Source: a virus | Direction: 5' to 3' (one strand) | Length of the DNA: 64,000 bases | IMG/VR virus record: IMGVR_UViG_3300030107_002332 | Shown: in pieces, positions 23,190 through 55,300 of the stretch | Position numbering within the stretch: position 1 is the first letter of the stretch | How the letters are laid out: every line of letters starts with the position of its first letter | Program-made: the position numbers and the translations under genes | Notes under the pieces: model-generated | Told to the model about the DNA's origin: nothing | Database searches by the model: none | What the model saw: only the letters and a program-made list of their open reading frames with translations

Positions 23190-23996
23190 TTATCCAATCA
23201 AGTCTAACGGTGGTAATTCATAACGATCACGTAGTTCTTTTTCAAGATCTAACTTGTACTGACTGCCATCTTCAAGAATCTGACGACCATTGAGTGTTAC
23301 TCCACCCAACATTTGAATGCCATCATACTTACTTAGGTTACGTCCCCATTGCTGTTGAAACAATGCTTCAACGTAATCTTTTAGCCAATTGTCATTAAAC
23401 ATACTAGTGTATGTAGTAGGATCCTGACGCATGGTACAGTCAACCATAATATGATCACCTGCTTGGAGTTCATTCCAATCCATGTCCATACTTAATCTAC
23501 CTGAGTGTTCATTCCACCCTATCCTACGATTTTGTTGAGAGTTTGTAACCCAGTCTAATGTTTCCAGATATTGAGATGTTAAGAAGTAATGTAATATTTG
23601 TCCATGCGTCATCGCATAGATGTCATTCAAAAAGATTTGGTATTTAATATTGAATATGTTACCTGGGACTATACTTGAAGCACCAATACTTGTGTATACA
23701 TGATTGACACCTAAGAGTCCTGGTGGTGTTGAAATATAATTATTAACACCATACCATGTAGTTGATCCTTGCTGAGTTTCTGATTGAGCTGCAGTTTTAA
23801 TTGCATCAGTAACCTCAACCTTCATCCATGCACGATAACTTCCATTATAATGATACTCTTGGTAGTAATCAATTGCTTCTTCTACCAAGTCATCAAGTTG
23901 CTCAGTCGCCACATTAATATCTACCGTAGGATACCCTAATCTACGAAGAGCATAGTCTTTTAACTCTGTTTTAGTTGCAGGTCTAGTTGTGGACAT
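23190..23996 (-). CDS. g13: Neck protein gp13
   Basis: ELKDYALRRLGYPTVDINV..EQLDD.VEEAI.YY.EYHYNG, WLKDYVEAL.QQQWG.NL.KYDG..MLGGVTLNG. Confidence 0.95.
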   Translation of the reverse strand: MSTTRPATKTELKDYALRRLGYPTVDINVATEQLDDLVEEAIDYYQEYHYNGSYRAWMKVEVTDAIKTAAQSETQQGSTTWYGVNNYISTPPGLLGVNHVYTSIGASSIVPGNIFNIKYQIFLNDIYAMTHGQILHYFLTSQYLETLDWVTNSQQNRRIGWNEHSGRLSMDMDWNELQAGDHIMVDCTMRQDPTTYTSMFNDNWLKDYVEALFQQQWGRNLSKYDGIQMLGGVTLNGRQILEDGSQYKLDLEKELRDRYELPPLDLIG

Positions 23997-24001
23997 TTAT
24001 T

Positions 24002-27000
24002 TTAAGCGAATGAGGAAATAGTCAAGTTAGTTACATCATTAGCACCAACGGTTTCTCCGACCTTGAAGAATCCATCAACATTATCAACGGTGACTGAAGT
24101 AGCACCAAGAGCAGTAATAACTCCAGTTGTACCAGAGGTTCCACCTGTTACAGTTGCACCAACTTCCATCGTTGTGATATCAGATAGAGCGAACGTAGCA
24201 TTAGTGAATACGGTAGAAGTATTAATCGTTGCGTTAGCAAAGATAGTAGCAATATCAACCGTTGCACCATTACCATGTATAGCAGATACAGGGAAGGATG
24301 CAGTGCTACCGTGAATAGCAGATACAGGAATTGTGGCACTATTACCATGAATTGCTGTAACATCAAAGGTAAGAGCAGCACCACCACCTCCACCAAGTTG
24401 TGCGTCAGCAACAGTAACTGTTTCATTAGCAATCCAAGTATCACCATCATTAACAACGGTAACTGTAGCAGCACCAGAACCATTAACTACAATAGTAAAG
24501 GTTGCATTCTGACCAGATGCTTGAGAAGCATAGTCAGTAGCAGCAATATTATATGTACCAGAACTTCTTGATGCGTCAGCAGCACCAATGTTACCTACAG
24601 TGTTAATACCAGAGGCATTAGCGTTAGTGATAGTCAAGACTTCAGATGCTGCATATCCAGAACCATCATCATTAATTGTAACTCCAGTAACAGCACCGTT
24701 AGCACCAACTGTTATATCAACAGTTCCACCAGTTCCAGATCCAGATGATGTAGTTGCAATAGCAGATCCAGCAGAGTATCCAGTACCAGCAGTAGCGATA
24801 GAACCAAGAGTCTTGGCACCAGTAGCATTTGCGTTAGTAATTGTGATTACTTCATCAGCAGCATAACCAGATCCATCATCATTAATAGTAACTCCAGATA
24901 CAACACCAGAACTTACAGTAACATCTACTGTCAATCCAGTTCCTGAACCAGCAGAAGTTGTTGCAATTCCAGATCCAGCAGCATAACCAGTACCACCTTG
25001 AGAAATAGATCCAAGTGTCTTAGCACCAGATGCATTAGCGTTCACAATAGTGATTGTGTCATCTACTGCGTATCCTGATCCTGCAGCATTTATAGCAGCA
25101 CCAGTTACAACACCATTAGATGTTGTGAGGTTAAGTGTTAATCCTGAACCTCCACCACCTGTAGTAGCGATTGCAGTTCCGTTGGCATATCCTGTACCAC
25201 CTACAAGGGTGTCAACAGTCGATGCACCACCTGCATTACTATTCGCAATAGTGATTGTCTCACCAATAGCATATCCAGATCCTGCAGCGTTTATAGCAAC
25301 GTTAGTGATTGCTCCATTTCCATCAACAGTAGTGTTAAGAGTTAATCCAGTTCCTGATCCAGATGAACTTGTTGCAACTCCAGTAGCAGCAGAGAATCCT
25401 CCAACACCACCTGATAGAGTACCCAAGTTAAGAGTATCAACACCACCAAGATTAGGGTTAGTAATTGTTAAAGTATCACCAATTAAGTATCCAGTACCAG
25501 CAGCATTTAATGCAAGACCAGTTATAATTCCATCAGCATTTACTGTAGTATCAACAGTTAATCCAGATCCAGTTCCACCTGTTGTAGCAACGTTTGTTGC
25601 TCCTGTGAATCCACCAACTCCACCAGCTGAAATAGATCCAAGTGTTACAACAGATCCAGGAGTAGGATCTCCAGATAAGTTAAGTGTTAATGTTGTTGCA
25701 GTAGCAAGGTTATTCAACATAGCACTAAGTTGTGCGTATGCATTATCAAGTTTTGCTTGAACTCTTGCTTCTGTATAATATTGATTAGTTCCTTCAGAAA
25801 GGTTAGTTGTAGACTTACTGGATAGATCTAAGTTAGCACCCGTTGCAGCAGCGACTCTTGCATTCGCTCTTGCATCTGTATAGTAAAGGTTAGATCCTTC
25901 TGATAGATCTCCAGTATCAGCAGCAGCAATACGTGCGTCTGCTCTTGCATCTGTAAAGAATAATTTACTTGATCCTTCAGTAATATTATCAGTATTAATA
26001 TCTGCCTGTGTTACAGATAGAGTACCACTACTATGTGTGATACCTGTGCCGTATGTAAAGTGTGTCCTTGTTCTGGCAGCAGTAGTAAAGAGATTTGTTG
26101 ATCCCTCAGTTATGTTATCAGAGTTAACGTCTGCCTGAGTAACAGATAGTGTGTATGTATTAGCAGCGTCATCATATACCTTAGTAACACCAGTACCAGC
26201 AATGATAACAGCATTAAGTCTGTCATCTACACGCTCGTTAGTGAAGTAAAGGTTAGTTGATCCTTCAGATAATGCATCAGTATCATGGTTTGCAATACTT
26301 GAAACTGTTCCAGTTACGTTACCAGTTACAGCACCAGTGATAGGACCAGCGAATCCAGTAGCAGTAAGGATTCCAGTATTTGAATTGAATGTTAAGTTTG
26401 TACCACTCTTAACTGCAAGAGAACCAGTCGCTGCAGTTGTGAATAGAACATTACATGAGGTGTCTGTTGACTCATCAGCAACGGTTACTGTAGCAGCAAG
26501 AGTTGCAGAATCAGCGTTACCTGTAAGATCACCAGTTACATCACCAGTCAAGGTACCAGTAATCGCTGTAATATTTGCAGCATCACCGTAAATATTTTGC
26601 CATCTGACTGAAGTAGTACCAAGATCATATGTACTATCAGCAGCAGGATTTAAGTTCTTAGCAGTTGATGTAGTTCCAACAATATTACCTGTTAGATCTC
26701 CAGCAACATTACCTGTTATATTACCAGTTACATTACCAGTTAGAGTTCCTGTAATAGCAGTGATGTCTGCAGCATCTGCGTAGAGCTTCTGCCAACGAAC
26801 TGTATTAGTACCAAGATCATATGAACTATCTGAAGCAGGATTAAGATCCTTAGCAGTAGAAGTAGCACCTGTAAGGTTACCAACTAAATCTGAAGTAATC
26901 TCATTAGCAGCAAAGTCACCAGATGCATCACGTATGACTAAGTTATTTGCAGCGTTTGTGCTTGAAGAAGCAACGTTAATTGTTGTGTTACCTGATACAC

Positions 27001-30000
27001 CATCAGGGTTTGTAAGAGTAATACCAGAGGATGCTGTAACAGCAAGTGTTCTTTGTGCGTAAGTATTTGCAGCAGTCCTTACAACGTATCCTGTGCCAGA
27101 CATTGCTGCCAAAGCAGTTATATCAGCATCAACGAATGTTGTAGTAATGCTTACATCAGCAGATCCGTTAAAGGATACAGTACCAGAAACAACACCAGCA
27201 ACTGCGATATTCCTTGCAGTCTCAAGTGTAGTTGCTGTAGATGCATTACCTGTTAGAGCAGCAGTAATTGTTCCTGCAGCAAAATTACCAGATCCATCTC
27301 TATTAACAACTGTAGATACTGTATTAGCAGTAGCAGTTGTCATACCATCCAGTAAGTCTGCGTTAAGGTTTGAAACCTTAGTTGTAGATGCAACTACAAA
27401 TGGAGCAGTACCTTGAGCAAGTTGAGAAATTATTTGTCCATCAACTGTTGCTGTACCATCTACGTTTAAATTATTGTCTATATCAACTGATGTACCAGCA
27501 CCAGTTACATTAAGTGATCCAACTCTTAAAGCACCATCAGTACCTGATAGAACTTCAGAACTATTAGTTGCACTTGTTAGGAATGCGAATTGTTGCGATG
27601 ATCTATCGAAACCAAAGAAGCCGATTTTAGCAGAGCCGTCGTAGTAACGGAACTCAATACCCCTATCCTTAGCATCGTTAGAAGATGGTGCTGTGTCACC
27701 ACCCAAAGTAACAATAGGGTCATCGTAAGTTGTGACCGTACTGTTGACTGTAGTTGTTGTTCCATTGACTGTAAGATTACCTGTGACTACAAGATCAGAT
27801 TGTAATGCCGTATCACCAGCAACCTGAAGTTCTCCTGCAGATACGATATTACCATTGTCAGTATCAACTGTAAATTTATCAACAGCTGAAGCATTCTGTA
27901 CTTTAAAGAACTTGTTATCTGCTTTAACTATTGTCTGATCATTAACAGTTAATGTGCCAGAAATGTCAGCATTATTATTAAGATCTAATGTACCTGTTAA
28001 TTCTGTATTGCCGTAGACTCGTGCCCCGCCACCAACTGCTAAGTTCTTAGCTAAACCAATACCACCAGAGAATCTTGCAGAACCATCAGCAGCGTATGAC
28101 CCTGTTAGAGTTTGCTCTGTGTTGTTAGTGAATGTATTAACACCAGATGTTCCGAATGTATCGTTGATCTGTGTAGCATCACCAACTGTTAATGTACCAA
28201 TTATATTTGTATTACCATTGTCTGTATCAACACCAAACTTCTCAACTGCAGAACCGTTTCTGATAGAGAAGATTTCATTTGCCTCATCAATAACAACTGA
28301 GTCATTGACATTGATCTGACCATCAACTTGTAAGGTTCCTGAGATTACAGTATTACCGTTATCAGTATCTACTGTGAACTTATCTGCTGCAGCAGCAGTC
28401 TGAACCTTGAACATCTTGTTGTCAGACTTGACAATAAGATCATCTTGGATAGTTGTAGCACCATCTACATTAAGTGTAGTATCAAAATCAACTGCACCTT
28501 TTACATTTAGATCTCCTTCATTTACTGCATTACCAGTAGCAGAAGCAATAGTAAACTTATCAGTTGTACCAGAACGAACTGCAAAGTTGCCATCAACATC
28601 TACAGTTCCATTAAACTCAGCGTTACCATTCTGTGTTAGTGTACCTTCAGATGTTATATTACCTGTAGCACCTAAGACTGTAAACTTAACTGTGTCTCCA
28701 GAGTTCTTTTTACCAACGAATAGACCTTCTCCAGATCCAGTAGCACCAACATGTAGGTTCTGGTTAACACCAGCACCACCATATACTCTTAAGTTAGAAG
28801 TGTTATGATTTGAATAGGAAGGATTGTAAGAAACACTTGAACCAGCCCTGATCTTATATCTGACCTGCAACCAGTTCCGTAAACCCCAACTCTCAGTTCC
28901 ACTATCTCTCTGGTTGAAGTCTCCGTTCAGGTAGATATCACTATCAAACAATACTGCCTTATCAAAGAATCCACCACCATCTACTCTTAATGCACCATAG
29001 TCAGAACTCTGTATCTCGTACAAGTCTGTAGCATTGTTTAGTGCAATGTTAGGTTCATCAGTAGATTCAAAATGAACTAAAGATCCAACATTTAATGTAC
29101 CTTCAAGATCTGTATTACCATTATCTGTATCAACTGTAAACTTGTCTGCAGCTGCAGCAGTTTGAATTTTAAAGAACTTGTTATCTGCCTTGATAGTAGT
29201 AGCATCAGATACTGTTAAAGTACCTGCTATAGCAGTGTTACCAGATGCTGCTGTGATATTAAACTTGTTACTATTAACATCAACGTTACCTGTAACAGCA
29301 AGAACACCTGCCATTGTTAGGTTACCAGATGTAGTTACTGCAGTAATTTTAGCGTTATTACTACCATCCTTAAGTATGAAATTCTTAGAAGCACCTTTAA
29401 TTACTACTTCATCAGTAAAGAGTGATGTGCCTGTGACACCTAAGTTAGTATCGATATCTACTGAACCACCGATATTGACACTACCACCGATACCAGCACC
29501 ACCTGCGACCACTAAGTCACCAGTAGTATTAGTTGTAGATGCTGTACCAGTTGTAAGTTTTAAGTTACCAGCGATGATCCCTGCATCTGTTCCAGAGAAT
29601 ACCTCTGCGGTATTTGTGGCATTGTAGAGGAACGTGAATGATCCTGCATGTCCTCCAAGATCGTTGGCCGAATCGTCGTAACCAAAGAATCCAACTCTTG
29701 CTTGAGAGTCGTAATATCTGAACTCAACACCTCTGTCTTTGTTATCGTCTGTTGAAGGAGCAGTGTCACCACCAAGAGTGATAATAGGATCATCCAGAGT
29801 AGTAACTGCTGAGTTAATTGTTGTAGTCGTTCCATCAACTTGCAAGTCCCCCATTATCTGAACTTTACCACTTGTTGCTCTGTCATCACCAGGATCAAGG
29901 ATCATAGTGGCAGAAGAGGAAGCGATATAGTCCCCTTGGAAATATGTGTCTTCTACTTGTACTTTACCAGCAGAATCTGATGCAGTGATTGTAACAGCAT

Positions 30001-31489
30001 TCTCTGCAGTTACTATAACACTACTATTACCAGAACCAGAGTTAGATGCTGATACAGTTAAAGATCTTGCAGAAGTTGAGTTCTGTGTAGTTGTGAAGGT
30101 AAGATTACCATCACCAGTCTTGTTTAGAGTTTGTGCAACCCCTCCGTCGAGGGTAATGTCTGCATCACTGAAATAGGATCTGACGTTGACATCAATCTCT
30201 CCAGCACCACCATCACCCGTATTATTTGCGCCAAACAGTAAATTACCACTTGTATCATTAATCTTGACATAGTTAAGTTTATTGAATCCACGATATCCTG
30301 TAGTAGCAGTTAATTCTTGGTCGAGGTCGAAGTCCTCTTTCGCGTTGCCGTCAGCAAAGGAAATTCTACTGTTTTGTAATTGATTATTGTCAATAGAACC
30401 AAGAGACATAGTAACGTGACCTGCTGCAGATACGTCAAAGTCTTCCTGATCAAAGGACGCGAGTCCTTTTTGTGGTGTTGCACTCGCACCAAGATACTCC
30501 CACGATCCCGCATCGCTAGCATCAGAATGAGTAGGTGCCCCAGCTCCTGCTGCAATACCTGCAATGGCCTGATAAAGTTTCGATGCATTAGTGATTTGAT
30601 CACCACGGGAATAGGTCGTTCCTGCATTATATGCTGCTGCTAATGTTCCTTGTGTAGCAGTCGCAATCGGAATTGTCGCTGCTGCAGTTATTCTACCATA
30701 AGTATCAACGCTATATTGCCCTGCGTTAACAGTTTCTGATCCAGCAACAGAAGTAGTACTTGCTGTATTGTAATCAGCAGCAGTTACAGCAGTTGCAACT
30801 AAATCAATAGTTGGGTTACCATTAAGACCAGCACCTTCATTAACTTGAATTCTTTGTGCAGTACCAGTAATAGTTCTGGTTTGCATATTACCAGCACTGG
30901 TTCTGGAAATCATACCAGTAGTGGTAAGACCAGCAATAGAAACAAGATCTAAATCATATGGTTGTGCAGATGAACCTTCTACTGTTCCATTAAGGTTATA
31001 ATCTGCTAACGTTGAAGGAGTTGAAGCATTTTTAATTCTACCCTGAGCATCTACAGTAACCTTCGTATAGGTTGCGGAAGATTCAGCAGTACCATCATAA
31101 TGTGGTAATGTTGATATAAGTTCTAGAGTTGTTACAAGGTTTAAGTTCTGAGAACCGTCAAATACACCAGAACCTTGAATGTCTCCTGATAATTGAATCT
31201 GACGAGTTGAAGCAAGTCTTGTGGAAGTTGAAGCATTACCAATAAGAGTTGATGTAATAGTACCTGCAGCGAAGTTACCGTCTGCGTCTCTCTGTACTAA
31301 AGTATTTGCAGTATTAGATGTCGATTCAACTGGACGCTCGTACCTCAAAGAGTTCCACGCTGAAACGCCATCTCCAATTTTAAATCGTCCAGTATCTAAT
31401 TCTATCCCTAATTCGCCTTGTGCTAATGTAGGGTTGGAGTTTGCCCATTCTTGGGCACCACCTCTTCTTAATTGAATTCTATTTGCCAT
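24002..31489 (-). CDS. Long fibre protein (2495 aa) in the T4 wac/fibritin position
   Basis: N-terminal IQLRRG...W...NP.LAQGE.G.E.DTG.FK.GDG..AW..L.Y (Mtd-N/hyaluronidase-type anchoring domain); many G/T/A-rich repeats; immediately upstream of g13. Confidence 0.85.
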   Translation of the reverse strand: MANRIQLRRGGAQEWANSNPTLAQGELGIELDTGRFKIGDGVSAWNSLRYERPVESTSNTANTLVQRDADGNFAAGTITSTLIGNASTSTRLASTRQIQLSGDIQGSGVFDGSQNLNLVTTLELISTLPHYDGTAESSATYTKVTVDAQGRIKNASTPSTLADYNLNGTVEGSSAQPYDLDLVSIAGLTTTGMISRTSAGNMQTRTITGTAQRIQVNEGAGLNGNPTIDLVATAVTAADYNTASTTSVAGSETVNAGQYSVDTYGRITAAATIPIATATQGTLAAAYNAGTTYSRGDQITNASKLYQAIAGIAAGAGAPTHSDASDAGSWEYLGASATPQKGLASFDQEDFDVSAAGHVTMSLGSIDNNQLQNSRISFADGNAKEDFDLDQELTATTGYRGFNKLNYVKINDTSGNLLFGANNTGDGGAGEIDVNVRSYFSDADITLDGGVAQTLNKTGDGNLTFTTTQNSTSARSLTVSASNSGSGNSSVIVTAENAVTITASDSAGKVQVEDTYFQGDYIASSSATMILDPGDDRATSGKVQIMGDLQVDGTTTTINSAVTTLDDPIITLGGDTAPSTDDNKDRGVEFRYYDSQARVGFFGYDDSANDLGGHAGSFTFLYNATNTAEVFSGTDAGIIAGNLKLTTGTASTTNTTGDLVVAGGAGIGGSVNIGGSVDIDTNLGVTGTSLFTDEVVIKGASKNFILKDGSNNAKITAVTTSGNLTMAGVLAVTGNVDVNSNKFNITAASGNTAIAGTLTVSDATTIKADNKFFKIQTAAAADKFTVDTDNGNTDLEGTLNVGSLVHFESTDEPNIALNNATDLYEIQSSDYGALRVDGGGFFDKAVLFDSDIYLNGDFNQRDSGTESWGLRNWLQVRYKIRAGSSVSYNPSYSNHNTSNLRVYGGAGVNQNLHVGATGSGEGLFVGKKNSGDTVKFTVLGATGNITSEGTLTQNGNAEFNGTVDVDGNFAVRSGTTDKFTIASATGNAVNEGDLNVKGAVDFDTTLNVDGATTIQDDLIVKSDNKMFKVQTAAAADKFTVDTDNGNTVISGTLQVDGQINVNDSVVIDEANEIFSIRNGSAVEKFGVDTDNGNTNIIGTLTVGDATQINDTFGTSGVNTFTNNTEQTLTGSYAADGSARFSGGIGLAKNLAVGGGARVYGNTELTGTLDLNNNADISGTLTVNDQTIVKADNKFFKVQNASAVDKFTVDTDNGNIVSAGELQVAGDTALQSDLVVTGNLTVNGTTTTVNSTVTTYDDPIVTLGGDTAPSSNDAKDRGIEFRYYDGSAKIGFFGFDRSSQQFAFLTSATNSSEVLSGTDGALRVGSLNVTGAGTSVDIDNNLNVDGTATVDGQIISQLAQGTAPFVVASTTKVSNLNADLLDGMTTATANTVSTVVNRDGSGNFAAGTITAALTGNASTATTLETARNIAVAGVVSGTVSFNGSADVSITTTFVDADITALAAMSGTGYVVRTAANTYAQRTLAVTASSGITLTNPDGVSGNTTINVASSSTNAANNLVIRDASGDFAANEITSDLVGNLTGATSTAKDLNPASDSSYDLGTNTVRWQKLYADAADITAITGTLTGNVTGNITGNVAGDLTGNIVGTTSTAKNLNPAADSTYDLGTTSVRWQNIYGDAANITAITGTLTGDVTGDLTGNADSATLAATVTVADESTDTSCNVLFTTAATGSLAVKSGTNLTFNSNTGILTATGFAGPITGAVTGNVTGTVSSIANHDTDALSEGSTNLYFTNERVDDRLNAVIIAGTGVTKVYDDAANTYTLSVTQADVNSDNITEGSTNLFTTAARTRTHFTYGTGITHSSGTLSVTQADINTDNITEGSSKLFFTDARADARIAAADTGDLSEGSNLYYTDARANARVAAATGANLDLSSKSTTNLSEGTNQYYTEARVQAKLDNAYAQLSAMLNNLATATTLTLNLSGDPTPGSVVTLGSISAGGVGGFTGATNVATTGGTGSGLTVDTTVNADGIITGLALNAAGTGYLIGDTLTITNPNLGGVDTLNLGTLSGGVGGFSAATGVATSSSGSGTGLTLNTTVDGNGAITNVAINAAGSGYAIGETITIANSNAGGASTVDTLVGGTGYANGTAIATTGGGGSGLTLNLTTSNGVVTGAAINAAGSGYAVDDTITIVNANASGAKTLGSISQGGTGYAAGSGIATTSAGSGTGLTVDVTVSSGVVSGVTINDDGSGYAADEVITITNANATGAKTLGSIATAGTGYSAGSAIATTSSGSGTGGTVDITVGANGAVTGVTINDDGSGYAASEVLTITNANASGINTVGNIGAADASRSSGTYNIAATDYASQASGQNATFTIVVNGSGAATVTVVNDGDTWIANETVTVADAQLGGGGGAALTFDVTAIHGNSATIPVSAIHGSTASFPVSAIHGNGATVDIATIFANATINTSTVFTNATFALSDITTMEVGATVTGGTSGTTGVITALGATSVTVDNVDGFFKVGETVGANDVTNLTISSFA
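24176..25645 (-). repeat. Six tandem ~70-aa G-rich beta modules followed by five short closing strands
   Basis: Units G.G.T.D.TV..G.VT...IN..G.GY...E.ITI.N.N, then HGNSATIPVSAI / HGSTASFPVSAI / HGNGATVDIATI / FANATINTSTV / FTNATFALSDI. Confidence 0.85.
25750..26290 (-). repeat. Five T-x-N-L-x-E-G-x-N-L-Y-(F/Y)-T-x-x-R fibre repeats
   Basis: DALSEGSTNLYFTNER, DNITEGSTNLFTTAAR, DNITEGSSKLFFTDAR, GDLSEGSNLYYTDAR, TNLSEGTNQYYTEAR. Confidence 0.8.
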
Positions 31490-40850: not shown

Positions 40851-43800
40851 TTACGAACGAACAGTTGTCTGATATTCAATTCGTTTGATTCTATATGATG
40901 CTCCAGCATTACCATTAATCTTTTCTCCACCCAAAACTGCTTGTGCTATAGCACCATTTGGAGTTGAAGCAAACTTACCATCAGAGATATTATTAGATGC
41001 ATCTGTGAAAAGAATGAATGGATGGGTCTTGTATGAGTTATCGATTGATTGCGTATACCCATACCCACCATTAATAATATTGATAGAAGCAACTTGGTCT
41101 GCTGCAGTTGTCATATTGACGGTTGCAGTTGCTTGTATATCTCCTAATGCACCACCCCAGTTAATAGTCTCACTATTTCTACTTTCGGTAGCAGGAGAAG
41201 TCGGACCCTGAATCTCTAATAATGGAGTAGCACTATAGTTCTGTCCAGCATCCTGAATAACAAAGTCAATGATTGATGAATCATGAGAGAATTCATAAAG
41301 ATAACCAGCAATACCAACATTAATATTGCCTGTATTATATGGAACAATATCCTTAAGTGTAAGAATACCATTTGAAGGATCCCATGATACACATGTTCCT
41401 CTAACTCCAGAAATAGCACCAGTTACTAGTTCATCAACACCGAAGTTCTGACCATTATTGTCTGTACTCAATTCAACATATATCTTAACAAGTGCTGTAT
41501 GGTCTACACCATCACTTAGACCACCTGCACCTGTAATAGTTGCATACTTAAATGGTATATCTGCGTCTTTAATATTGTCTCCAACTTGGAAGAGAGTAGT
41601 ATTTTGACCACCAAGGGTTTCTTCAATACCATATAATGATGTATGAATACCACCATCAAGACTAATTTGATTGAGGAAATCTGTACCTGTATTTACCAGA
41701 TCAGGAATACCATCTCCAACTGGTGGACCTGCAGGTATAAGATCTTGGAATGCTTTATCTTGTAAAGTTGAAATAGGAACTGTTAAAGTTGTAATTACAC
41801 TTCCAGTAGAATCAACAACTACGTGAGGATTAAATCCTGATGGAGCACTATCTGCAACACCAGCATCAAATTGTACAATAGCATCCTCAGTAGAAGGAAG
41901 ACCACCATCAATAAATGCTAATTCATCAATTTCAAATGTAACTAATAGTGCTCTTGAAACTGGATCCCAATCATATACTTTAGCAACTTTATTACTAGAG
42001 TTTTCAACCTTTCTAATAACTCTGTCACCAACATTAAACTTATAATTTGAACTACCATCTGCATTATTCTGTCCAGCATCAAGAACAATACGCTGATCAT
42101 AGTTAAAGTTTACACCTCTTGTTAAACCTGAGAACTTACCAGCAGATTTAGAAGTATAAGAAATAGTTTCTGTATCTACAATAATCTTACCTGAACCTGG
42201 ATATGCGTCTGTAGAATCAACAAACACATCTGAATCAGATGCACCAAGTTTTTTAACTAATCCAGTTAAGTAGATTGCAGAAGAGTTAAATGCCTGTCTT
42301 GCTCTTGACTTACGCTTAAGATTAACAAGTTTAGTGAATATTATATTTGGTGAAGATGTATATCCAGTACCAGGTTCAATAACATTAATACCAGTTATAG
42401 CACCTTGACTAATAGTTGCCTCTGCCTTAGCACCTAATCCTCCTCCACCAGTAATTAAAATATATGGTGCCTCTTGATAGTATTCACCAGAATTTACAAC
42501 ACTAATTGATGTAACCTTACCAAGTTTATCAATAGTAGCTGCACCTTCAGCACCTTGTCCACCACCACCTTCAAATATAAGAGTTGGTGGAGTTGCATAA
42601 TCTCTACCAGTATTGTTTAGTGATAAACCAGTAACTGTTTGTACAACTGGACTACCAGTTGCACCAGTTCCACCACCACCTAAAATTCTTGCAGTAGCAG
42701 CACCAAAATAATTATCACCCTTTTGGGTCATCTTAATATAAGAAAGTTGACCAGGATTATCTGTACTTAATACAATCTCACCCTCAGCACCTTCTGGGAA
42801 TACTGATGGCATTTGTGGTACTGAACTGCCTTCAAATATAGGAGCACCATAGAATTTTAAACCAATAGCATAAGGATATACAGGATTACCTGAACCATCC
42901 TCTGTCATAAAGTAAGCATAAGTTCCATTTGGATACTCAGGAGTTACAGCAAACTTACCATTATACTCATCAAGAGTACCAACACCAGAAGCCCAAATAT
43001 AATCTTGTGTTAAATCTCCAAGAATATAACCACCCTGAACAGTTCTTAATCCTAAATTAGATGTTGAATATCCAAAAACATATAGAGCAGGAGGAGCATC
43101 TACAGGAACTGTCCACCTCATCTCTCTGGTAGTTGCCAACTGGAAACCACTTATATAATTTGTATATGTTACTTCAGAACCATTAATATAATACTTAATT
43201 CCTTGACCTGTATAAAGATATGATGTATCTCCTAAATCGCTTGGATTACCAGTAGAGTGCCAACCATTTTCTGTAGTAGAGAGTAATAGATGGTTTACAC
43301 TTGGTTGATCATCATTACTTGAATCATTCTGTTGGAAGACATAAGTCTTTCCTCGTTTAAAATCTAAGAAGTTTGGTCTTGCACCATCAAATAAGAATTG
43401 TCCACCTGATACTGTAACAGCATAAGTGACTGTTGTTGCAGTAGTTACTTCAGGACGAGCACCTGGAAGTTCTGCAGTAGTTCTTAATCTATATCCAGAT
43501 ACCTCTCTAGCAACAGTACCAGAAGAATTATATCCCCAAGGTCCATAAATTGGATATCCATCATAGGACATACCCAATATCTTAGAGTGACCATCTACAT
43601 GCCTTCCATAATCAGGACCAGTAGCAAAGAAGTTTCTAACATAATAATCATTAGCTGGTGTATGAGACTCAACAGTAGGATCCAGAATCATATAACCTTC
43701 ATCACCTTCATGCCCAGACATATATCGATGATTTTTACAATAATAATAAATTTTATTAGTCTCATCCGCATTCATTAAGAATAGCGGTTGTAACTCAGTT

Positions 43801-46362: not shown

Positions 46363-46370
46363 TATTTATA
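46363..46370 (-). promoter_or_regulatory. T4-type late promoter TATAAATA
   Basis: Exact consensus overlapping the giant gene's stop, 21 nt upstream of the ATG at 46342. Confidence 0.75.
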
Positions 46371-49300
46371 AAGGTGTCTCAGGGTCAACTGGTTCTTCAC
46401 CATATAGACTTAGATCAGGAGCAGTCCAATCATCAGGAACTGATGTTTCAACTGCGATAGTTGGATTCGCATATCCAGATCCAGGATTACTAACTTCAAC
46501 ACCACCAACTCCAACAAGAGCTCGTATAGCACCCTCAAATCCAGATATAGAGTCAATTCTTACAGTTGGTCTGGTAGTATATCCAGATCCACCTGAGGTA
46601 ACTTGTACATCCTTAAGTGTGCCAGAAGTTAGATTTGCGTTTGCAATCGCACCTGAACCAAATACAGATCCAAGATAATCGAAGGTAATTAGTGAGTTAG
46701 AGGATTCAATAACAGCAACTTCTCTATCTGAAGTCTCACCTTGGATGTCAATAAAGTCACCAGGTTCGACTGGAGGTACAACCTCAGCAGCGTCAACGTC
46801 TGCTTCAGAACCAACGTAGGAGAATGCAACGAATGTTGATCCCACACGAGGAATTTCAGAGAATAGAATTCTTGAACCAACAATCTCAAATCCAATTCCA
46901 GGTTCCTGTATAACACCATTCAGTGAAACGATGATGTTATTTTCTGGACGTATGGTAGAAGATTGTACACCCTCAGTTAGCGTTAGTGAGTAGAATACGT
47001 CATTACGCTTGAGGTTAAATGACTGACGTAAGGAGTCGAACTCGAATGAAATATCATCCAACTGTCTCAACTTACCTACGTAGAATCCTGTGAATGATGC
47101 TCCTAAATCTGGTGCCTCTTGGAATTGAATCTCATCAGAGAACGCTGTATATGCGTTAGATGCACCTGGAGGTTGTAGAATACCATTAATGAATACAAGT
47201 AGATGTCCTGCAGGATCTGGTAGATATGGAGTACCATTTTGCTGAGTTAACTTGAAGTTTGTAGTAGTTCCATCAAATCCCTTGAATGAACGCTTAACAC
47301 GTGCCTTGAGACTTACTATATCTTCAATAACTGAAGCATATCCGTCTGGACCTTTAATAGAATCCTTAGGATCAAAGGTACCTTTGATACTTGAAAGATA
47401 AAGTCTTCTATTAACACCAACTGTTCTAATGTCCTGAACAACTGCAGCTGCAGCACCAGCAGTAGTAACCTTAGTGTTAATACTTGCGTAACCAACTGGG
47501 TTAGATAAACCAGCACCATAGTCACCTACAACATCACCGTTAGTAATGGTTCCTTGATACTCTTGCATATAGATGAAACTATTATCAAGATCAACTGCAG
47601 TAATAATACCGTAAGTATTCTGGTCTTGTATACCAGATACAACCTTATAAAGTCTGTTACCAACAGTGAAGTTGTTAAGACCACTAAGGACTGTAACACC
47701 AAGTCTTATGTAACCATTAGATGCGATTCTTGCACCAACACCTATATCAAGTCCAGCATACTTGACAACATCAAGATACTGTCTGGAAGATTCAGGATAA
47801 ACAACAGCAGTAGTTTCAAATGTACCTGTAAGAGTTGCGGTATCAACTGTTAGAGTACCACCAGTATTATCTAATGTAGCAGCCTCTCTTCTAAGGAATC
47901 CAGTAGGAGTTGCGGTAGCACCTGAAGTATATCCCTTAAATGGAACATTATCTTCAAATTCACCCTTAAGGTCGATAACATGAATTCTACTTTCTATAGC
48001 ACTAATCTGAGCAGTTGTGGAGTTTTCAGCACCAACAACATTATCAGTGATAGCCCAAGGTCCAGCAGTTACCTTAACATCAAGATACTTGTAGTTGGCA
48101 TCTGACCAGAAACCATATACAACACCAGTGATTGAAGGTGCACCTTGCTTGGCAACAGTCTCACCCATAGTGTAAGGACCATCAGTGATATCACCATCAA
48201 TTCTAAATCTTTGGAACACCTGTACGATCTTACCTTCATTTAAGGTAAGATTTTCAAGTTCACCGTATGTGTTACTTAATAAACCATACATGTAATCAGC
48301 ATTCTGTATACCACCACCAACACCTTGAGGAATTGATCTTGTTCCATATGTCTTAGTTGGTAGAGAAACACCATTTACACTAATGTAATTAGTATAAGAT
48401 GAATCAACAGTTAATTGCTGACGAATAATATCGAGACAGTATCTAACTATAGCACTTGCTGAATCTGCATCATACCATGCAGCAGCTTCATCATAGAATG
48501 CTTTATAGAAACCAGAATTAGGTGATGGAGAAGTTAGACCATTATTAAGTGCCTGAGACATATAAGTCTCCATCAAATCTAAAGCATAATTCTTAATATT
48601 ATACTCAGCGTCAGAATAGAAGATCTTAGCATCTTGAGATTGATATGGATCTAAGGCATTCTTATTGAGTTTAGCACCCCAGACATAAAGTCCATCACTA
48701 TTATTACCAGCGTATGTTTGAGCACCAGAGGCATTCTTAACATAAACTTGTGCTCTCATTTCTGCGAAACCGAAGGAGAATGTTAGAGTAATATATGCTC
48801 TATACCATCCATCTCCAAGAGGTACAACACCGTATGCATCACCAGTTACACCATTTTGAGGTGTGAATAATGTTCCAACTACACCTGTGTCAAGTGCAAC
48901 ATCAAAGAATGCATTCTGAACAGCAGCAGTGCCATAGTTCAGTGATAACATTACACGAGCGTTATCATATTCACCCTTCTTAAGGAAGACGGAATATGTG
49001 TATTGCTGTGTAGGAGATGTTCCAGAAGCACCTTCGTCAAATCTTTGATTGTTTGCGTCCCACTTGATAGTATCATCATCAAATGTATCATAAGCAGATA
49101 GATTATAAACTCTATGAATTGTATGATCTGCGTTAGTAGAAGAAGCAATTAATTTATCAGCAGTTAATGTTCCATCAGGAGCAAGTAGAGCATCATCAGT
49201 AAATGAAACCTCAGTACCAGTCCAATTAATTGAGAATTGCTCTGGGTTAGTGAGTAGGTTAGTACCAGCAAGTTGACCACTTACATTAGAAGTGATAAGT

Positions 49301-52300
49301 CTTGCACTACCAAGTGTCTTAACATTAGAAACACTATCGTACCACTTGTAACTATTACCAATACCAGCAGGATCAATAGTTGCAGTTGCACCAGAATCGT
49401 TACCTGTTAATACATCATAATCCTTCCATTCTGTACCAGTAACAGTACTGCATACGAAGAATTCTGTATCGATATTATATTCACGAACTATTGCAGTACC
49501 ACCACCATCAGATGTAACTGTTTCACCAACTTTAAAGTTACCAGTTATATCACCAATAGCAATATTACGAGCAACTGAATTCTTAGTCATATCAGTTGTG
49601 ATAATATCATGAACGGTATCATCTACAAGTTGATCAATGAATGTATTATAAGTCCAAGCACCAGCACCAAACTGTGAATTAACTAGAGTTGTAATCTCCT
49701 CTTTATAGTAATTTCTGTTGTAAAGTAAGTTCTTAGCAGCACCCCGTCCCTCCATCTTAGCAGGAGCAAGAATATCAACTGCTAAATCAGTTAATTCTTC
49801 TAATCTACGAACTACATCTTCAATTGCTACTGGAGATAAAGAATCTGTATAAGGAGCTTCATCTGTATGTTGAGCAACATATTGTTGAGCAGTTGAAGTT
49901 CCATTAAGAGCAACTAAACGATTTCTAAGTGCATGCTCACCAATAATCTTAATTTGTTCAATACCATAAACTGTTGCTAATAGTTCAGTTTCAACATGAT
50001 TTAAGTTTCCTGCGGAAGTTAAGTAGTATTCCATAGCAGCAACGGTACTATTATTACCACCTGTCTGAAGGTCAGAAATAATACCAAGAATGATTAACTT
50101 AATATCTCTTTGACACTTACCTTCACCTAAAGCACCCTCTGGATAAGTATGTGCATTATAGTTTACACTGTTAAGTACATAAGTGAACTCAGCAGTTATT
50201 AATCCTGTAATCTCCTCTGCAATATATTTTCTATTGAAGTAAAGTCTATCAGCAGCGATAGCATAATCATTATCTGTAGGAGCAATAATATCATTAACAG
50301 ATGTAACTAAAGTATCGATAGCAGACTTAACGTTTGCACATCCACCACCATCTTGAGTAATACCCCAATCACCAACAATAATATCATCAGTATTATCATA
50401 AGTTAAATCACCAGTAATTGCTTGCTTCATGTAATGAGCAAGACGATTATGTGCATAAACTGACTGGAATACTTGTAATCTGATGTGTAATAGAACATCA
50501 TTAGTACCAAGATAGAACTTACCAACATTAGTACTATTCAAGTTACCACCATCTTCAATATCTTTACAGAACTCTTCAAGGAGTAATGTTAAGTCAGTCT
50601 TACATTGTAAAGTACCATCTTGAGTACCACCTACGTTACGAGGCATTTCAAGTACAAGATCTGGATATAATGTAAGCATATCGTGAGATGTCTTATCTAC
50701 GATAGGTCCAGTATTTGCACGAATTAATGCAGCAGCATCTCTAAATCTGTTGCGTGTAGTCTCATCAATTTGATTAGTAACAATGATATCATTAGTAGCA
50801 TCATGATAAGAAATTGGGAATGGAACCTCATAGTATGCACTAACTTTACCACCAAGGAAATCATGCTTAGGAGTTAACTTAGTAACAGTTGCAAGATGAT
50901 CTACAGCAGGTGATAGATTTGCTTGAGTGACAGTATCAACCAAGATATCCATCAAGTTATCAATAGTTGTGTATACATCAGTACAATCTGCCCAACTGTA
51001 ATCTAATACTGAAACAGCATTATTTGCAATAGAAACTAACTGATGAGTATTCTTAACTTTCTTAACAGCACCATACTTAGCAGAAACAAATGTATGTGCA
51101 GACTGTGGTAAGAAGGCTACAGCGTTAGTTGTAGCACTTACGAATGTATGAGTGTAATCTCCACCAGAACTAATTACTGCTCTCTTGATTCCATTAGCAG
51201 TTGCAGACTGGAATGCATGAGACATAACGTTAGTTGATGGTACTGCATCAAGAACCTGAACGTCAAATGTATTTGTAGTAACTCCAGAAATAGTAACCCA
51301 CTTACCACTAACAGGATCACTCTTTCTTGGATAAGTCTTAGTTACAGTATTACCATCAAGAGCACAAGTAAATGATAGTGAATTATCAGCGATCTTGACT
51401 TTCTCACCGTTAACGAATCCATGATTAGCAACTGTGATTGTCATAACACCTGTAGTTGGGTTATATGCAGCATTAGTTGCTGTAAAGTCGCTATTAGCAC
51501 TAACGAATGTGTGAGCAGTTGTGTTAGAAGATGTACCAACATTAACTGTAATTGTGTTACCTGTTACAGCAGTAATGTTAACAGCATCGTTGTATGCTGG
51601 ATCATCAGCAGATGCACCACCCTGACCGTTTGCACGAGGATAAGTATGGTTAGAACCATGACTATCTTGAGCACAAGTAAAGGTTAATGAATTATTAGCA
51701 ATTCTTATTGATGTACCAACTGTAAGATTATGGTCACCAATTGTTAGAACTAATAAACCAGAAGCAGGAGTAAAGCTTGCAGCAGATACTTCATGACCGA
51801 TAATAGGTGAAGAACCAACATTAACTGTAATTACACCAGTCTTTCTTCTAAGTCCCTTTGTAGCAAATGACTTGAATGTATGAGTTGTTGTATCAGAAGA
51901 AATACCAAAGTTAACATCAAATGTATTAGTTGCAACGTTGGATATTTGCATCCACTTATTCTGATAAGGATCAGTTGCTCTTGGATATGAATGATCTGTT
52001 TGATTTCCATCTAAAGAACATGTCATAGTTAAAGCATTATCAACAATCATTACCCAATCACCGTTAGACCATCCATGATTAGCAAGAGTGATTGTTGCAG
52101 CACCTGTTGCTGGAGTGTATGAAACGTTAGTTGGTGTATGATGTGTATGTCCTACATGCTTAACAGGAATAGACTTAAGATTACCATAAGGATCTGTTGA
52201 ACGAGGATAAGTCTTATTAGAAGATCCTCCATCCATTGTGCAATTAAATGTTAATCCATTATTTGCAACTGTAATACTTGATCCAACACTGATACCATGA

Positions 52301-55300
52301 CCACTACCAATAGTTAGAGTCATATCACCAGTATAAGCATCATAAGTTGCTGCAGAAGGTGTAAATGTCTGGTTAGTACCAGCAGGATTTACATTAACTG
52401 TAATTGTTCCAGTTTGTCTCTTAACACCACCAGAAGTAGCAGATACAAATGTATGAGCAGTTATGTTAGAAGAAATACCAACATTAACTTCAAATGTATC
52501 AGCAGTGATAGCAAAGATATCCAACCATCTATTATAAGTTGGATCAGTTACTCTTGGATAAGCATGGTTAGAACCATTACTGTCTTGAGCACAAGTAAAG
52601 GTTATTGCATCAGCATCAAACTTAACTCTATCACCAGCAACTAATCCATGTGAAGCAGATGTAATTCTTAAAATACCAGTTGTAGGTTCATAGTTAGCAG
52701 TTGAAGGAGTAAGACTTGAAGTACCAACAGAAGCAACAGGTATCGCTTTTGCAGAGAACTCATCTTTATTAGTACGAGGATAAGTCTTATTAGCTTGATT
52801 GTTATCCATTGCACAAGTGAATGTCAATGAATTATCATCAATAGTAATACTATCATCGTCTGTTATATCATGTGATCCAATAGTTAATACTAAGTTACCA
52901 GTAGCAGGATCATATGTTGCAGCAGTTGGAGTATATGGTTGATCAATAGTATCACCAAGAGACTTACCAATATCAACAGTAAATGTATTTGTTGTTGCCT
53001 TTCTTACTCTTAGAGCAGAAGTATAAGCAGGATCTGTGACACGAGGATATGCATGATCTGTTCTCTTACCATCGATATGACATCTGAAGGTTAATGAACC
53101 AGCATCAAGTTTAATTGCATCACCCATCTTATGAATACCATTTGCCTTAGCAGATACAAATGTATGGGTATAGTCACCACCAGTACTTACTACAGATCTG
53201 GTAATACATCCAGTAGTAGCAGATACAAATGCGTGTGTTGTAGTATTAGTTGGGGATGTTCCTTGTAGAACATTGATAGTAAATGTATTTGTTGTTACAG
53301 CAGTAATTGGAACAAATCTGTTACTAATTGGGTCTGTAGATCTTGGATAAGCATGGTTTGTTGCATTACTATCCTCAGCACAAGTGAATGTTACTCCACC
53401 ATCAGCAATCTTAATATGCTCTCCAACCTTGAATCCATGATTATTAACAGTCAATACCATGTTACCAGTGGATGCTGTATATGAAACAGTTGATGGAGTA
53501 TAAGTGTTATTTGCGTCTATAAATGTATGATCGTAGTTACCACCAACAATTAGACCACCAGTCTTAGCAGATACAAATGCGTGTGTTGTAGTATTAGAAG
53601 AAGTATTAACATTCAGGGTAATAGTTCCATCCTGAACCTTGATACCATTAGATGTAGCACTTACATAAGTGTGTGCAAAATCACCAAATCCAGTAATACC
53701 AACATTAACATCAAATGTGTTAGTTGTGGAAGCAACAATAGGAGTCCATTGGTTAGCAACTGGGTCGGTAGCACGAGGATAAGTATGGTTTGTTGCATTA
53801 CTATCTCTTGTGCAAGTAAAGGTTAATGAATCAGCATCAAACTTAACTTGACTATTTGCCTTCATAACACCATTAGTTGTGGCAGATATGAACGCATGAG
53901 TTGATTGATCATTTGCAACACCAATATTAACATCGAATGTATTGGTTGTTACATTTTGAACAGTCAACCACTTGAGGTATGAAGGATCAGTAGCACGAGG
54001 ATATGAATGTTGTGATTCATGATTATCCTTATTGCAACTGAATGTTAAAGCACCTTCTTTAATTAAAATTCTATCTCCATTAGTATATCCATGACTTGAT
54101 TTTGTCAAAGTCAGAACACCTGTTGCTGGTACATATACAGCACCAGTTGGTGTAATCTCTGAAGCAGCAGTCAAACCATGACCATTGCTAGTGATTTGTA
54201 GAACACCTGTAGTAGGAGCATAAGTTGCACCTGTAGCAGTCTTATTGGAAGTACCAACAGCAGAGATCTCGATAGGAGCGTCATATGCTCTATCTCTCTT
54301 TTGCTTGATGCAGTTTGTAACAGCAGATACAAATGCATGAGTAGAAGTATTAGTAGAAGGTATAGTCTGTAATACTTGTACTGTAAATGTGTTTGTAGTT
54401 ACAGCAGAAACTTTCAACCACTTACCGCTAACTGGATCAGTTGATCTTGGGTAAGTATGGTTAGTTTGGTTATTATCTAACTGACATGTAAATGTAAGTG
54501 AATTATCATCTATCTTAATCCAATCACCAACTCTAACACCGTGAGAGTTAACTGTGAATACTAAGAGACCTGTTGTACCACTATATGTCGCAGTAGATGG
54601 TGTGAACTCATCTATAAATGGTCTTGGATAAGAGTGGTTAGATGCATTGCTATCTTCAGCACATGTGAATGTTAATGCTCTATCAACTAATCTAACTGTT
54701 TGACCAACGTTTAAATTATGTGTTCCAACTGTCAATACTAAGTTACCATTTGCAGGAGTATATGCTGCATTGGTCATATCATGCTTCACAGTAGGTGACT
54801 TACCTACATCAATACTAATAGATCCATCTTGCTTAACGATACCATTAGGATATGCAGACTTAAATGTATGAGCAGACTTATCTGGAGATACACCAACATT
54901 AACAGTAAATGTCTTATCTGTTAGAGAATTAATTCTCAACCATCTTCTATAGAATGGATCTGTAGATCTTGGATAAGCATGATCAGTAGCGTTATTATCT
55001 TTCTCACATGTAAATGTTAGAGACTTCTCAGCAATTCTGATCTTATCACCAACAGAATAACCGTGCTTATCAGATAGAACACTGTTATTTCTTGCACTTA
55101 CGAATGTATGAGTATAGTCACCACCAGTTGTCACAACTGCTCTTGTTACACAGTTAGCAGCAGCAGAAACGAAACTATGAGTTGTAGTATTTGTTGAAGG
55201 TACTACATCAAGAACTTGGATAGTGAATGTATTTGTAGTTACTGATTGAATATCAATAAACTTACCGCTAATTGGGTCAGTAGTTCTTGGATAGGTATGA

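What the first reader, a model, noticed from the sequence alone, without database searches (positions are those of the whole stretch)
24176..25645. Matryoshka (nested-bracket) domain architecture at the fibre tip
Seen: five consecutive ~70-aa modules each end at N-x-N-x-x-G without their final strand. A sixth, divergent module is complete (...GGGGAALTFDVTAI). Exactly five short segments follow (HGNSATIPVSAI, HGSTASFPVSAI, HGNGATVDIATI, FANATINTSTV, FTNATFALSDI), each resembling the missing G-x-A-T-x-x-V-x-x-I strand. Inference: each domain was inserted into the same loop of the previous one, so the chain goes out and returns, closing domains in reverse order. This would give a double-stranded rigid stalk with a swappable innermost tip domain, a simple way to tune fibre length and receptor specificity.
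Basis: inference. Interest (0 to 1): 0.7.

Follow-up and report, generated by a model that had tools for sequence, protein, structure and literature searches.

The report
Self-nested barrel rod in cyanophage fibre
The last 560 residues of a giant fibre protein of a marine T4-like cyanophage most likely build a rod of six small beta-barrels plugged one inside the next, each finished by one short strand that the chain supplies on its way back, and related phages carry from one to eight such barrels.

Summary
The 2,495-aa fibre protein (24002-31489, minus strand) ends with five open ~70-aa modules, one complete module, five 11-12-aa strands and a 57-aa end domain. In 146 distinct relatives the number of open modules (0 to 7) predicts the length of the strand block (11.67 aa per module, r = 0.994); one outlier looks like a recombinant or chimeric assembly. 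Where relatives differ by one level, the extra module and the extra strand sit at mirrored ranks in 31 of 35 pairs, never at parallel ranks only. Relatives with 0 or 1 level show the closing strand directly after a tight glycine hairpin, which is exactly where the next domain is inserted. An AlphaFold2 model of a two-level relative is confident (pLDDT above 90 in the nest). Single-barrel PDB domains align to module 1 plus the last strand, module 2 plus the strand before it, or the inner domain alone. The window's own six-barrel model failed, so its fold rests on homology. Recursive self-insertion is known from cyanobacterial RNA polymerase Si3; I found no description of it in a phage fibre. 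This scan has already reported the same nest in other cyanophage genomes. Function (reach or receptor choice) is inferred.

The parts
24002..31489 (-). Whole gene: 2,495-aa giant fibre / virion structural protein (cyanophage 'T4-GC 402', annotated elsewhere as 'YadA domain-containing structural protein' or 'fiber')
   Evidence: ORF, translation. phrog_697 structural protein, E = 0. Mtd_N at residues 5-43. Homologues in P-SSM4, P-RSM4, S-TIM4 and others lie directly upstream of gp13.
25442..25678 (-). Open module O1 (residues 1938-2016, starts LSGDPTPG, ends NPNLGG): outermost barrel, lacks its last strand
   Evidence: module HMM hit i-E 3.9e-27. The homologous O1 of the folded relative forms one barrel with the last closer.
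25226..25441 (-). Open module O2 (residues 2017-2088, ends NSNAGG)
   Evidence: The homologous O2 + its closer form one barrel in the model.
25025..25225 (-). Open module O3 (residues 2089-2155, ends NANASG)
24818..25024 (-). Open module O4 (residues 2156-2224, ends NANATG)
24608..24817 (-). Open module O5 (residues 2225-2294, ends NANASG)
24350..24607 (-). Innermost complete 'core' barrel X (residues 2295-2380), closed by its own strand LTFDVTAI after a GGGGG hairpin; the predicted far end of the rod
   Evidence: Homologous to the regular complete module: hhalign probability 95%, E 3.7e-8, with the hairpin and last strand aligned. A contiguous barrel in the model of the relative.
24314..24349 (-). 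Closer c5 HGNSATIPVSAI (residues 2381-2392): predicted sixth strand of O5
   Evidence: mirror pairing.
24278..24313 (-). Closer c4 HGSTASFPVSAI (2393-2404): predicted sixth strand of O4
24242..24277 (-). Closer c3 HGNGATVDIATI (2405-2416): predicted sixth strand of O3
24209..24241 (-). Closer c2 FANATINTSTV (2417-2427): predicted sixth strand of O2
   Evidence: Against a four-level relative, the window-type protein has one extra outer module and exactly this 11-aa closer extra (L037 vs L001).
24176..24208 (-). Closer c1 FTNATFALSDI (2428-2438): predicted sixth strand of O1
   Evidence: The homologous c1 is a strand with high pLDDT, and it is the last aligned residue of the O1 barrel in structural alignments.
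24005..24175 (-). Conserved 57-aa C-terminal domain (2439-2495), which the return path places at the base of the rod; fold and role unknown
   Evidence: Conserved in all relatives, n = 0-7. pLDDT only 40-53 in the monomer model. No Pfam match.

Best explanation
The C-terminal 560 residues form one chain-internal nest of six homologous six-stranded beta-barrels. The chain builds strands 1-5 of barrel 1 and leaves at a conserved N-x-N-x-x-G exit, the position of the tight glycine hairpin that precedes strand 6 in un-inserted modules. It then builds strands 1-5 of barrel 2, and so on. The sixth (core) barrel closes itself. On the way back the chain gives each waiting barrel its sixth strand in reverse order (HGNG-type entry for inner levels, F-x-N-A-T for the two outer ones). 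Neighbouring barrels are therefore joined by two antiparallel connections instead of one linker. The far end of the rod is the innermost barrel, and the conserved 57-aa C-terminal domain returns to the base of the rod. Depth is an allelic character: relatives have 0 to 7 open modules, and depth changes by gain or loss of one module together with its mirrored strand. Shown: the anatomy, the count rule, the mirrored indels, the homology of closers to strand 6, and the nested topology in a confident model of a two-level relative. Inferred: that the window's six barrels fold the same way; that the rod is stiff; that it sets the reach and the receptor contact of the fibre; and that folding proceeds from the inside out.
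For: (1) Anatomy in the window. (2) Count rule: 113/114 by regex. By HMM, 146 distinct sequences with n = 0-7 give a slope of 11.67 aa of tail per open module, r = 0.994, one outlier. Named isolates follow it: P-SSM4 has n = 5, P-RSM4 and S-TIM4 have 3, P-SSM7 and S-SSM4 have 2, and S-SM1, P-RSM1 and S-ShM2 have 1. (3) Closers are strand 6. In n = 0 relatives one module reads ...ITITGGGGNATIDVSAV and is followed at once by the C-terminal domain. In n = 1 the inner module ends ...TIVQAGGAGGTVDIATV. In n = 2 the same flanks read ...TIANANASG[86-aa core]HGNGATVDIATV. (4) Mirror order: module similarity against closer similarity gives Pearson 0.72 under mirror pairing, 0.22 under parallel pairing and 0.02 +/- 0.015 for random pairing. 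In 35 nearest (n, n+1) pairs the extra module and the extra closer have mirrored ranks in 31, and parallel ranks only in 0. These include non-innermost cases: module 2 of 4 with closer 3 of 4, and module 4 of 6 with closer 3 of 6. (5) AlphaFold2 of a two-level relative (71% identical to the window type) with a 69-sequence family alignment gave mean pLDDT 82, above 90 through the nest, with both closers as strands. VIA-align matched ~75-80 residues of single-barrel PDB domains to three kinds of model range: 77/80-244/246 (O2 + c2), 5/8-256/262 (O1 + c1) and 155/164-236/237 (X). (6) The core domain is a homologue of the regular module.
Against: The window's own 571-residue C-terminus did not fold with confidence (pLDDT 39), so its structure rests on homology to the two-level model. 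I could not read model coordinates. The pairing is inferred from the first and last aligned residues and from aligned lengths, at weak Z (3-4.7). AlphaFold2 saw a monomer, but fibres are usually trimers, so strand exchange between chains is not excluded. The comparative mirror signal is partly what any protein with conserved ends and a variable middle would give, although the non-innermost mirrored indels go beyond that. One sequence (P0058) has three open modules and two closers.
Confidence: 0.8

Rival explanations
1. Same out-and-back topology, but in the assembled (probably trimeric) fibre each closing strand completes the barrel of a neighbouring chain (three-dimensional domain swapping). 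The rod would then be one intertwined three-chain body and not three separate nests.
For: Phage fibres are typically trimers, and the N-terminus carries Mtd_N, a domain of a trimeric fibre protein (established knowledge of Bordetella phage Mtd). The C-terminal domain is poorly predicted as a monomer. The count rule and the mirror order fit this equally well.
Against: The monomer model closes both barrels within one chain at pLDDT above 90. Connections between successive closers are 0-3 residues long, which fits return along the same chain's barrels.
Confidence: 0.1
2. The modules are self-sufficient five-stranded domains in tandem. The short strands form their own structure (a strap, sheet or beta-helix) running back along the rod. 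Their number matches the modules only because the chain must cover the same distance back to place the C-terminal domain at the base.
For: A 12-residue extended strand (about 4 nm) is roughly the size of one small barrel, so a geometric count rule is conceivable (inference). c2 and c1 are adjacent strands separated by 3 residues in the model.
Against: In n = 0 and hairpin-type inner modules the homologous strand follows strand 5 after a 4-residue glycine hairpin as part of the module. hhalign aligns it with the last strand of the core domain. Structural alignments of single barrels extend to the last residues of c2 and c1.
Confidence: 0.07
3. No special architecture: a low-complexity G/T/S/A-rich repeat region whose apparent bracket structure is coincidence or an assembly artefact.
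For: The composition is strongly biased. Metagenomic assemblies of repeats can be chimeric; P0058 probably is.
Against: The same rule holds in 145 of 146 distinct sequences, including complete genomes of eight cultured phages. The two-level relative gives a confident fold.
Confidence: 0.01

Closest known systems
Si3 insertion of cyanobacterial RNA polymerase beta' (RpoC2): recursively inserted sandwich-barrel hybrid motifs
   Same: Copies of one small beta-barrel-type domain are inserted into each other, so several domains are built from distant parts of the chain. A 2026 survey calls it a six-level recursive insertion, A1-B1-C-B2-A2 (PMC13114784; PMC10895346). It occurs in the hosts of these very phages.
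   Different: A different protein and process (transcription, not a virion). Si3 is branched and has irregular connections and a fixed architecture. The fibre nest is strictly linear, always uses the same hairpin, and its depth varies from 0 to 7 between close relatives. No RNA polymerase chain was among the 50 best structural matches, so a shared fold is not shown.
'Russian doll' domain organisation of contractile sheath proteins (T4 gp18, diffocin CD1363)
Nested barrel domains of gp7 in the same phage (window 46366-63909; earlier finding e1-5876538)
   Same: The same genome and the same building principle: open barrels closed in reverse order.
   Different: The fibre module HMM gives only one weak hit in gp7 (i-E 7e-7).
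Distal tip of the T4 long tail fibre gp37 (PDB 2XGF; from my own knowledge, not tested here)
   Same: The chain runs out to the tip and returns, so the far end of the fibre is a turn and not the C-terminus.
   Different: gp37 forms an intertwined trimeric needle held by His-x-His iron sites, not a string of globular barrels. The closers here carry a single His and no H-x-H motif.
Other members of the same unnamed barrel family (e.g. P0155, P0130, P0123)
   Same: The same module (profile E down to 1e-59), also self-nested: k N-terminal halves, one complete module, then k C-terminal halves.
   Different: The insertion point is the beta3-beta4 turn in mid-module, not the beta5-beta6 hairpin. The host proteins are different: 350-1,300 aa, and one has a signal peptide. 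This rests on sequence only; nothing was folded.

Membership tests
Recursive nested domain insertion (architecture class A1-B1-C-B2-A2, as defined in PMC13114784) | A domain's sequence is interrupted by another complete domain, and the host domain still folds from its two parts | tested here: met
   In the model of the two-level relative, single-barrel targets align to 77/80-244/246 and 5/8-256/262 with only ~75-80 aligned residues. The clean insertion block sits at the hairpin in n = 1 versus n = 2.
Recursive nested domain insertion (architecture class A1-B1-C-B2-A2, as defined in PMC13114784) | The inserted domain is itself a host (two or more levels) | tested here: met
   Five open modules and five closers in the window. 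Relatives have 0-7 levels with matching counts. For the window itself this is shown at sequence level only, because its own model failed.
Sandwich-barrel hybrid motif (SBHM) / hybrid-motif fold of RNA polymerase Si3 | Structural similarity of the module to SBHM domains | tested here: inconclusive
Cyanophage T4-GC 402 fibre ('YadA domain-containing structural protein', phrog_697) | Sequence membership | tested here: met
   phrog_697 E = 0 over residues 1-1707. 59-73% identity of the C-terminus to P-SSM3, P-SSM4, P-RSM4 and S-TIM4.
Cyanophage T4-GC 402 fibre ('YadA domain-containing structural protein', phrog_697) | Position directly upstream of the gp13 neck gene, downstream of the baseplate wedge genes | tested here: met
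   In the window, the fibre (24002-31489) is followed by 23190-23996 (phrog_211, adaptor), then head closure, sheath stabiliser and small terminase. Eight named phages have the same order.
Cyanophage T4-GC 402 fibre ('YadA domain-containing structural protein', phrog_697) | Presence in the virion | not testable with these tools
   PMC6224464 reports that proteins of 14 of 20 mutated S-TIM4 genes were detected in particles, and it treats ORF108 as a tail-fibre component. I did not check its supplementary table.
YadA-type trimeric autotransporter adhesin | Match to YadA head, stalk or anchor families | tested here: not met
   A Pfam scan of the whole protein at E <= 0.1 found only Mtd_N and a sub-threshold CBM_5_12. 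The database label 'YadA domain' is not supported for this protein.
T4 gp37-type fibre tip needle | His-x-His metal-binding motifs on outgoing and returning strands | tested here: not met
   The sequence of residues 1938-2438 has single His residues only at the start of three closers and no H-x-H.

The most novel reading that the evidence does not exclude
The nest is a quantised, evolvable ruler for host recognition. Each level adds one barrel to a doubly connected rod that carries the innermost barrel as the receptor-contacting tip. Phages change reach and specificity by exchanging the contiguous inner cassette (module(s) + tip + closer(s)) through recombination. The underlying barrel belongs to a large, unnamed family (about 1,900 representative proteins) that is intrinsically prone to self-insertion at two different hairpins, which would make it a natural scaffold for nested protein design.
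Probability: 0.3. Interest if true: 0.8.

Novelty: new variant of a known kind. Interest (0 to 1): 0.6.

Why it matters
Recursive self-insertion of a domain has so far been documented mainly in one protein, cyanobacterial RNA polymerase Si3, where six levels were called the extreme case in a 2026 survey (PMC13114784). Here a different barrel builds a strictly linear nest of up to eight barrels in a virion fibre, and the depth differs in whole steps between closely related, partly cultured phages (P-SSM4, S-TIM4, P-SSM7, S-SM1). That gives a natural series for testing three questions: how such chains fold (outer barrels cannot close until everything inside has been made), whether double connections stiffen a rod, and whether fibre reach or tip type sets host range in the ocean's most abundant phototrophs. 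It also corrects a misleading database label ('YadA domain') and defines an unnamed barrel family.

Tried and rejected
(1) AlphaFold2 on the window's own 571-aa C-terminus with 18 close homologues gave pLDDT 39, unusable.

(2) A sequence search of the PDB found no real match. Foldseek against the PDB found nothing at E <= 0.001. Pfam found no family for the module, the core or the C-terminal domain. The ESM Atlas returned only unnamed clusters (one search was a size slip).

(3) Complex prediction with three copies of the two-level C-terminus gave no verdict (score 0.00, controls not run). It says nothing for or against a trimer.

I used the search for related loci instead.

(5) Parallel pairing (first closer with first module) was rejected: correlation 0.22 against 0.72 for mirror pairing, and no indel pair consistent with parallel pairing only.

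(6) The first regex count showed 20 mismatches. All but P0058 were variant terminators or 12-aa F-type closers missed by the pattern.

(7) The n = 0 modules align better to O2-type than to O1-type modules, so I left them out of the fold alignment. I make no claim about which module is ancestral.

(8) Literature searches for an earlier description of this nest in a phage fibre found none. The held library is incomplete.

(9) BFVD matches were mainly homologous fibre fragments and single modules in other cyanophage tail proteins. They added nothing on topology.

Full report
OBSERVATION. The finding lies in the C-terminal fifth of a 2,495-codon ORF on the minus strand (24002-31489). Mapped to residues, the layout is:
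- five modules of 67-79 residues (1938-2294), each ending N-x-N-x-x-G;
- an 86-residue divergent module (2295-2380) that ends ...AQLGGGGGAALTFDVTAI;
- five segments of 12, 12, 12, 11 and 11 residues (2381-2438);
- a 57-residue terminal domain.

WHAT THE GENE IS. The protein matches phrog_697 ('structural protein', E = 0) and begins with an Mtd_N domain. [quoted passage not shown]

In the window it is followed by genes for a head-tail adaptor, head closure, sheath stabiliser and small terminase, and it is preceded by baseplate wedge genes. In eight named phages the same gene sits directly upstream of gp13. This is the slot that gp12 and wac occupy in T4 (my knowledge of the T4 map). No YadA family is detectable, so that label is not supported.

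In S-TIM4 the orthologue (ORF108) was mutated in all experimentally evolved populations and is treated as a tail-fibre component. Intragenic recombination between its repeats was reported (PMC6224464).

COUNT RULE. From 120 database homologues and 160 viral-contig loci I obtained 146 distinct C-termini.
- A regex count on the first 114 gave equal numbers of open modules and closers in 113, with n = 2-7.
- A count that does not rely on my regexes used module HMM hits and the length of what follows the last hit. It gave tail = 12.6 + 11.67 x n_open, r = 0.994, for n = 0-7.
- Cultured phages follow the rule: P-SSM4 has 5, P-RSM4 and S-TIM4 have 3, P-SSM7 and S-SSM4 have 2, and S-SM1, P-RSM1 and S-ShM2 have 1.
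- The single outlier, P0058, has the modules of a three-level allele and a closer block identical to that of a two-level allele (L102), joined in the innermost module they share. I read it as a recombinant or a chimeric assembly.

THE CLOSERS ARE STRAND SIX. The shallow relatives make the homology explicit.
- With no open module, the single module reads ...TITITGGGGNATIDVSAV and runs straight into the C-terminal domain.
- With one open module, the inner module ends ...TITIVQAGGAGGTVDIATV and one closer (ATNATLTLTDV) follows.
- With two, the same flanks read ...TVTIANANASG [86-residue core] HGNGATVDIATV ATNATLTLTDI.
The N-x-N-x-x-G exit and the HGNG entry are therefore the two halves of the former glycine hairpin. 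Pairwise alignment of n = 1 with n = 2 gives a single 83-90-residue block at that hairpin. The core domain is itself a divergent copy of the module (hhalign 95%, E 3.7e-8, hairpin and last strand aligned).

MIRROR ORDER. Across 44 non-redundant proteins, similarity between modules tracks similarity between their assigned closers. Pearson r is 0.72 under mirror pairing, 0.22 under parallel pairing, and 0.02 +/- 0.015 for random assignment.

A sharper test uses nearest pairs that differ by one level. The extra module and the extra closer have mirrored ranks in 31 of 35 pairs, and parallel ranks only in none. Several cases are not at the innermost position (module 2 of 4 with closer 3 of 4; 4 of 6 with 3 of 6; 4 of 5 with 2 of 5). 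Compared with a four-level relative, the window type has one extra outer module and exactly the 11-residue penultimate closer extra. The four exceptions are off by one among near-identical closers.

STRUCTURE PREDICTION. The window's own 571 residues with 18 close homologues gave pLDDT 39. I then folded a two-level relative (L081, 314 residues, 71% identical to the window type). I used a 69-sequence alignment in which deeper relatives contribute their outer layers and carry the inner ones as insertions.

The result was mean pLDDT 82, with 87-97 through almost all of the nest and 40-53 in the C-terminal domain. Each open module has five strands, the core has six, and both closers are strands.

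- 77/80 to 244/246, which is O2 plus c2;
- 5/8 to 256/262, which is O1 plus c1;
- 155/164 to 236/237, which is the core.

FAMILY BREADTH. A profile of complete modules hits 1,908 representative proteins at E <= 1e-3 and 358 at 1e-10. Their lengths run from 100 to 5,353 residues, with 1 to 28 matched stretches. Pfam has no model for it.

Many of these other proteins show k N-terminal half-modules, one complete module, then k C-terminal half-modules. P0155 is a clean one-level case and P0130 a three-level one. This looks like the same barrel nested at its beta3-beta4 turn. It is sequence evidence only.

HOW IT PROBABLY WORKS. The following is inference from the anatomy. The chain goes out through five unfinished barrels, makes a self-closing tip barrel, and zips the others shut in reverse order. 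Neighbouring barrels are joined twice (exit and return, with 0-3 residues between successive closers), which should make a stiffer rod than beads on a single string. The far end is the innermost barrel, of which two types exist at several depths. The conserved C-terminal domain comes back to the base. Outer barrels cannot finish folding before the whole interior has been made. Depth can change in one step only by moving a contiguous inner cassette. This fits the mirrored indels and the reported recombination in the S-TIM4 gene.

COMPARISON AND NOVELTY. Recursive self-insertion is documented for cyanobacterial RNA polymerase Si3, and nesting of unlike domains for contractile sheaths. I found no description of this fibre nest.

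The scan itself has reported the same architecture in other cyanophage genomes (e1-5790637, e1-5790640, e1-5935248, e1-5750332, e1-5750229), and a different nested repeat in gp7 of this genome (e1-5876538).
- the complete 0-7 series with a regression;
- the mirrored-indel test;
- the confident two-level model;
- the breadth of the barrel family;
- its second insertion site.

CAVEATS.
- The window's own protein was not modelled successfully.
- Pairing is read from alignment ranges, not from contacts.
- The oligomeric state is unknown; the trimer job gave no verdict.
- Function is untested.

Noticed in passing
window 46366-63909 (-): The neighbouring giant gp7-like baseplate protein carries a second, unrelated self-nested repeat (motif LTFTC..D.N.T.H.YPR..DP), already reported by the scan (e1-5876538). 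One phage thus uses the nesting principle with two different domain families.
   Followed up: partly
window 60457-60624 (-) and 42342-42503 (-): The fibre module HMM gives single weak hits in gp7 (residues 1126-1181, i-E 7e-7) and in the 1,420-aa baseplate protein (residues 871-924, i-E 1e-4). The same barrel probably occurs singly in other tail proteins. BFVD also shows single modules in a 'tail protein' of S-CAM1 and an 'Ig-like' protein of MED4-213.
   Followed up: no
proteins P0155, P0130, P0137, P0123, P0136: Non-fibre members of the same barrel family show k N-terminal halves, one complete module and k C-terminal halves. This is a second kind of self-nest, with the insertion at the beta3-beta4 turn (after LTVDI.A). 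P0123 has a signal peptide and looks bacterial.
   Followed up: partly
protein P0058; compare L102:5504-6421 and L069:340-1503: This is the only sequence that breaks the count rule (three open modules, two closers). Its modules match a three-level allele and its closers a two-level allele, joined in the shared innermost module. It is a recombinant or a chimeric metagenome assembly.
   Followed up: partly
L089, L093, L098, L100, L105, L117, L160 (S-SM1 type); L166, L167, L168: In one-level relatives the closing hairpin of the inner module is either short (QAGGAGG) or 7-8 residues longer (e.g. QPTGLDGSNPGSGG). The same hairpin that hosts whole domains is also a hot spot for small indels.
   Followed up: no
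window 24002-31489 and 23190-23996: The fibre gene stands directly upstream of the gp13-type neck/adaptor gene in the window and in eight named cyanophages. That is the slot of gp12/wac in T4, so it may be a neck- or baseplate-attached fibre and not a long-tail-fibre equivalent. The database label 'YadA domain' has no Pfam support.
   Followed up: partly
window 25050-25760 (+), 24588-24866 (+), 24275-24571 (+): There are long antisense ORFs (up to 236 aa) inside the module region. They are most likely by-products of the G/T/A/S-rich repeats, not genes.
   Followed up: no
window 24005-24175 (-): The 57-aa C-terminal domain is the most conserved part of the whole region across n = 0-7. It has no family match and folds poorly as a monomer (pLDDT 40-53). 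It could be an oligomerisation or assembly element.
   Followed up: partly
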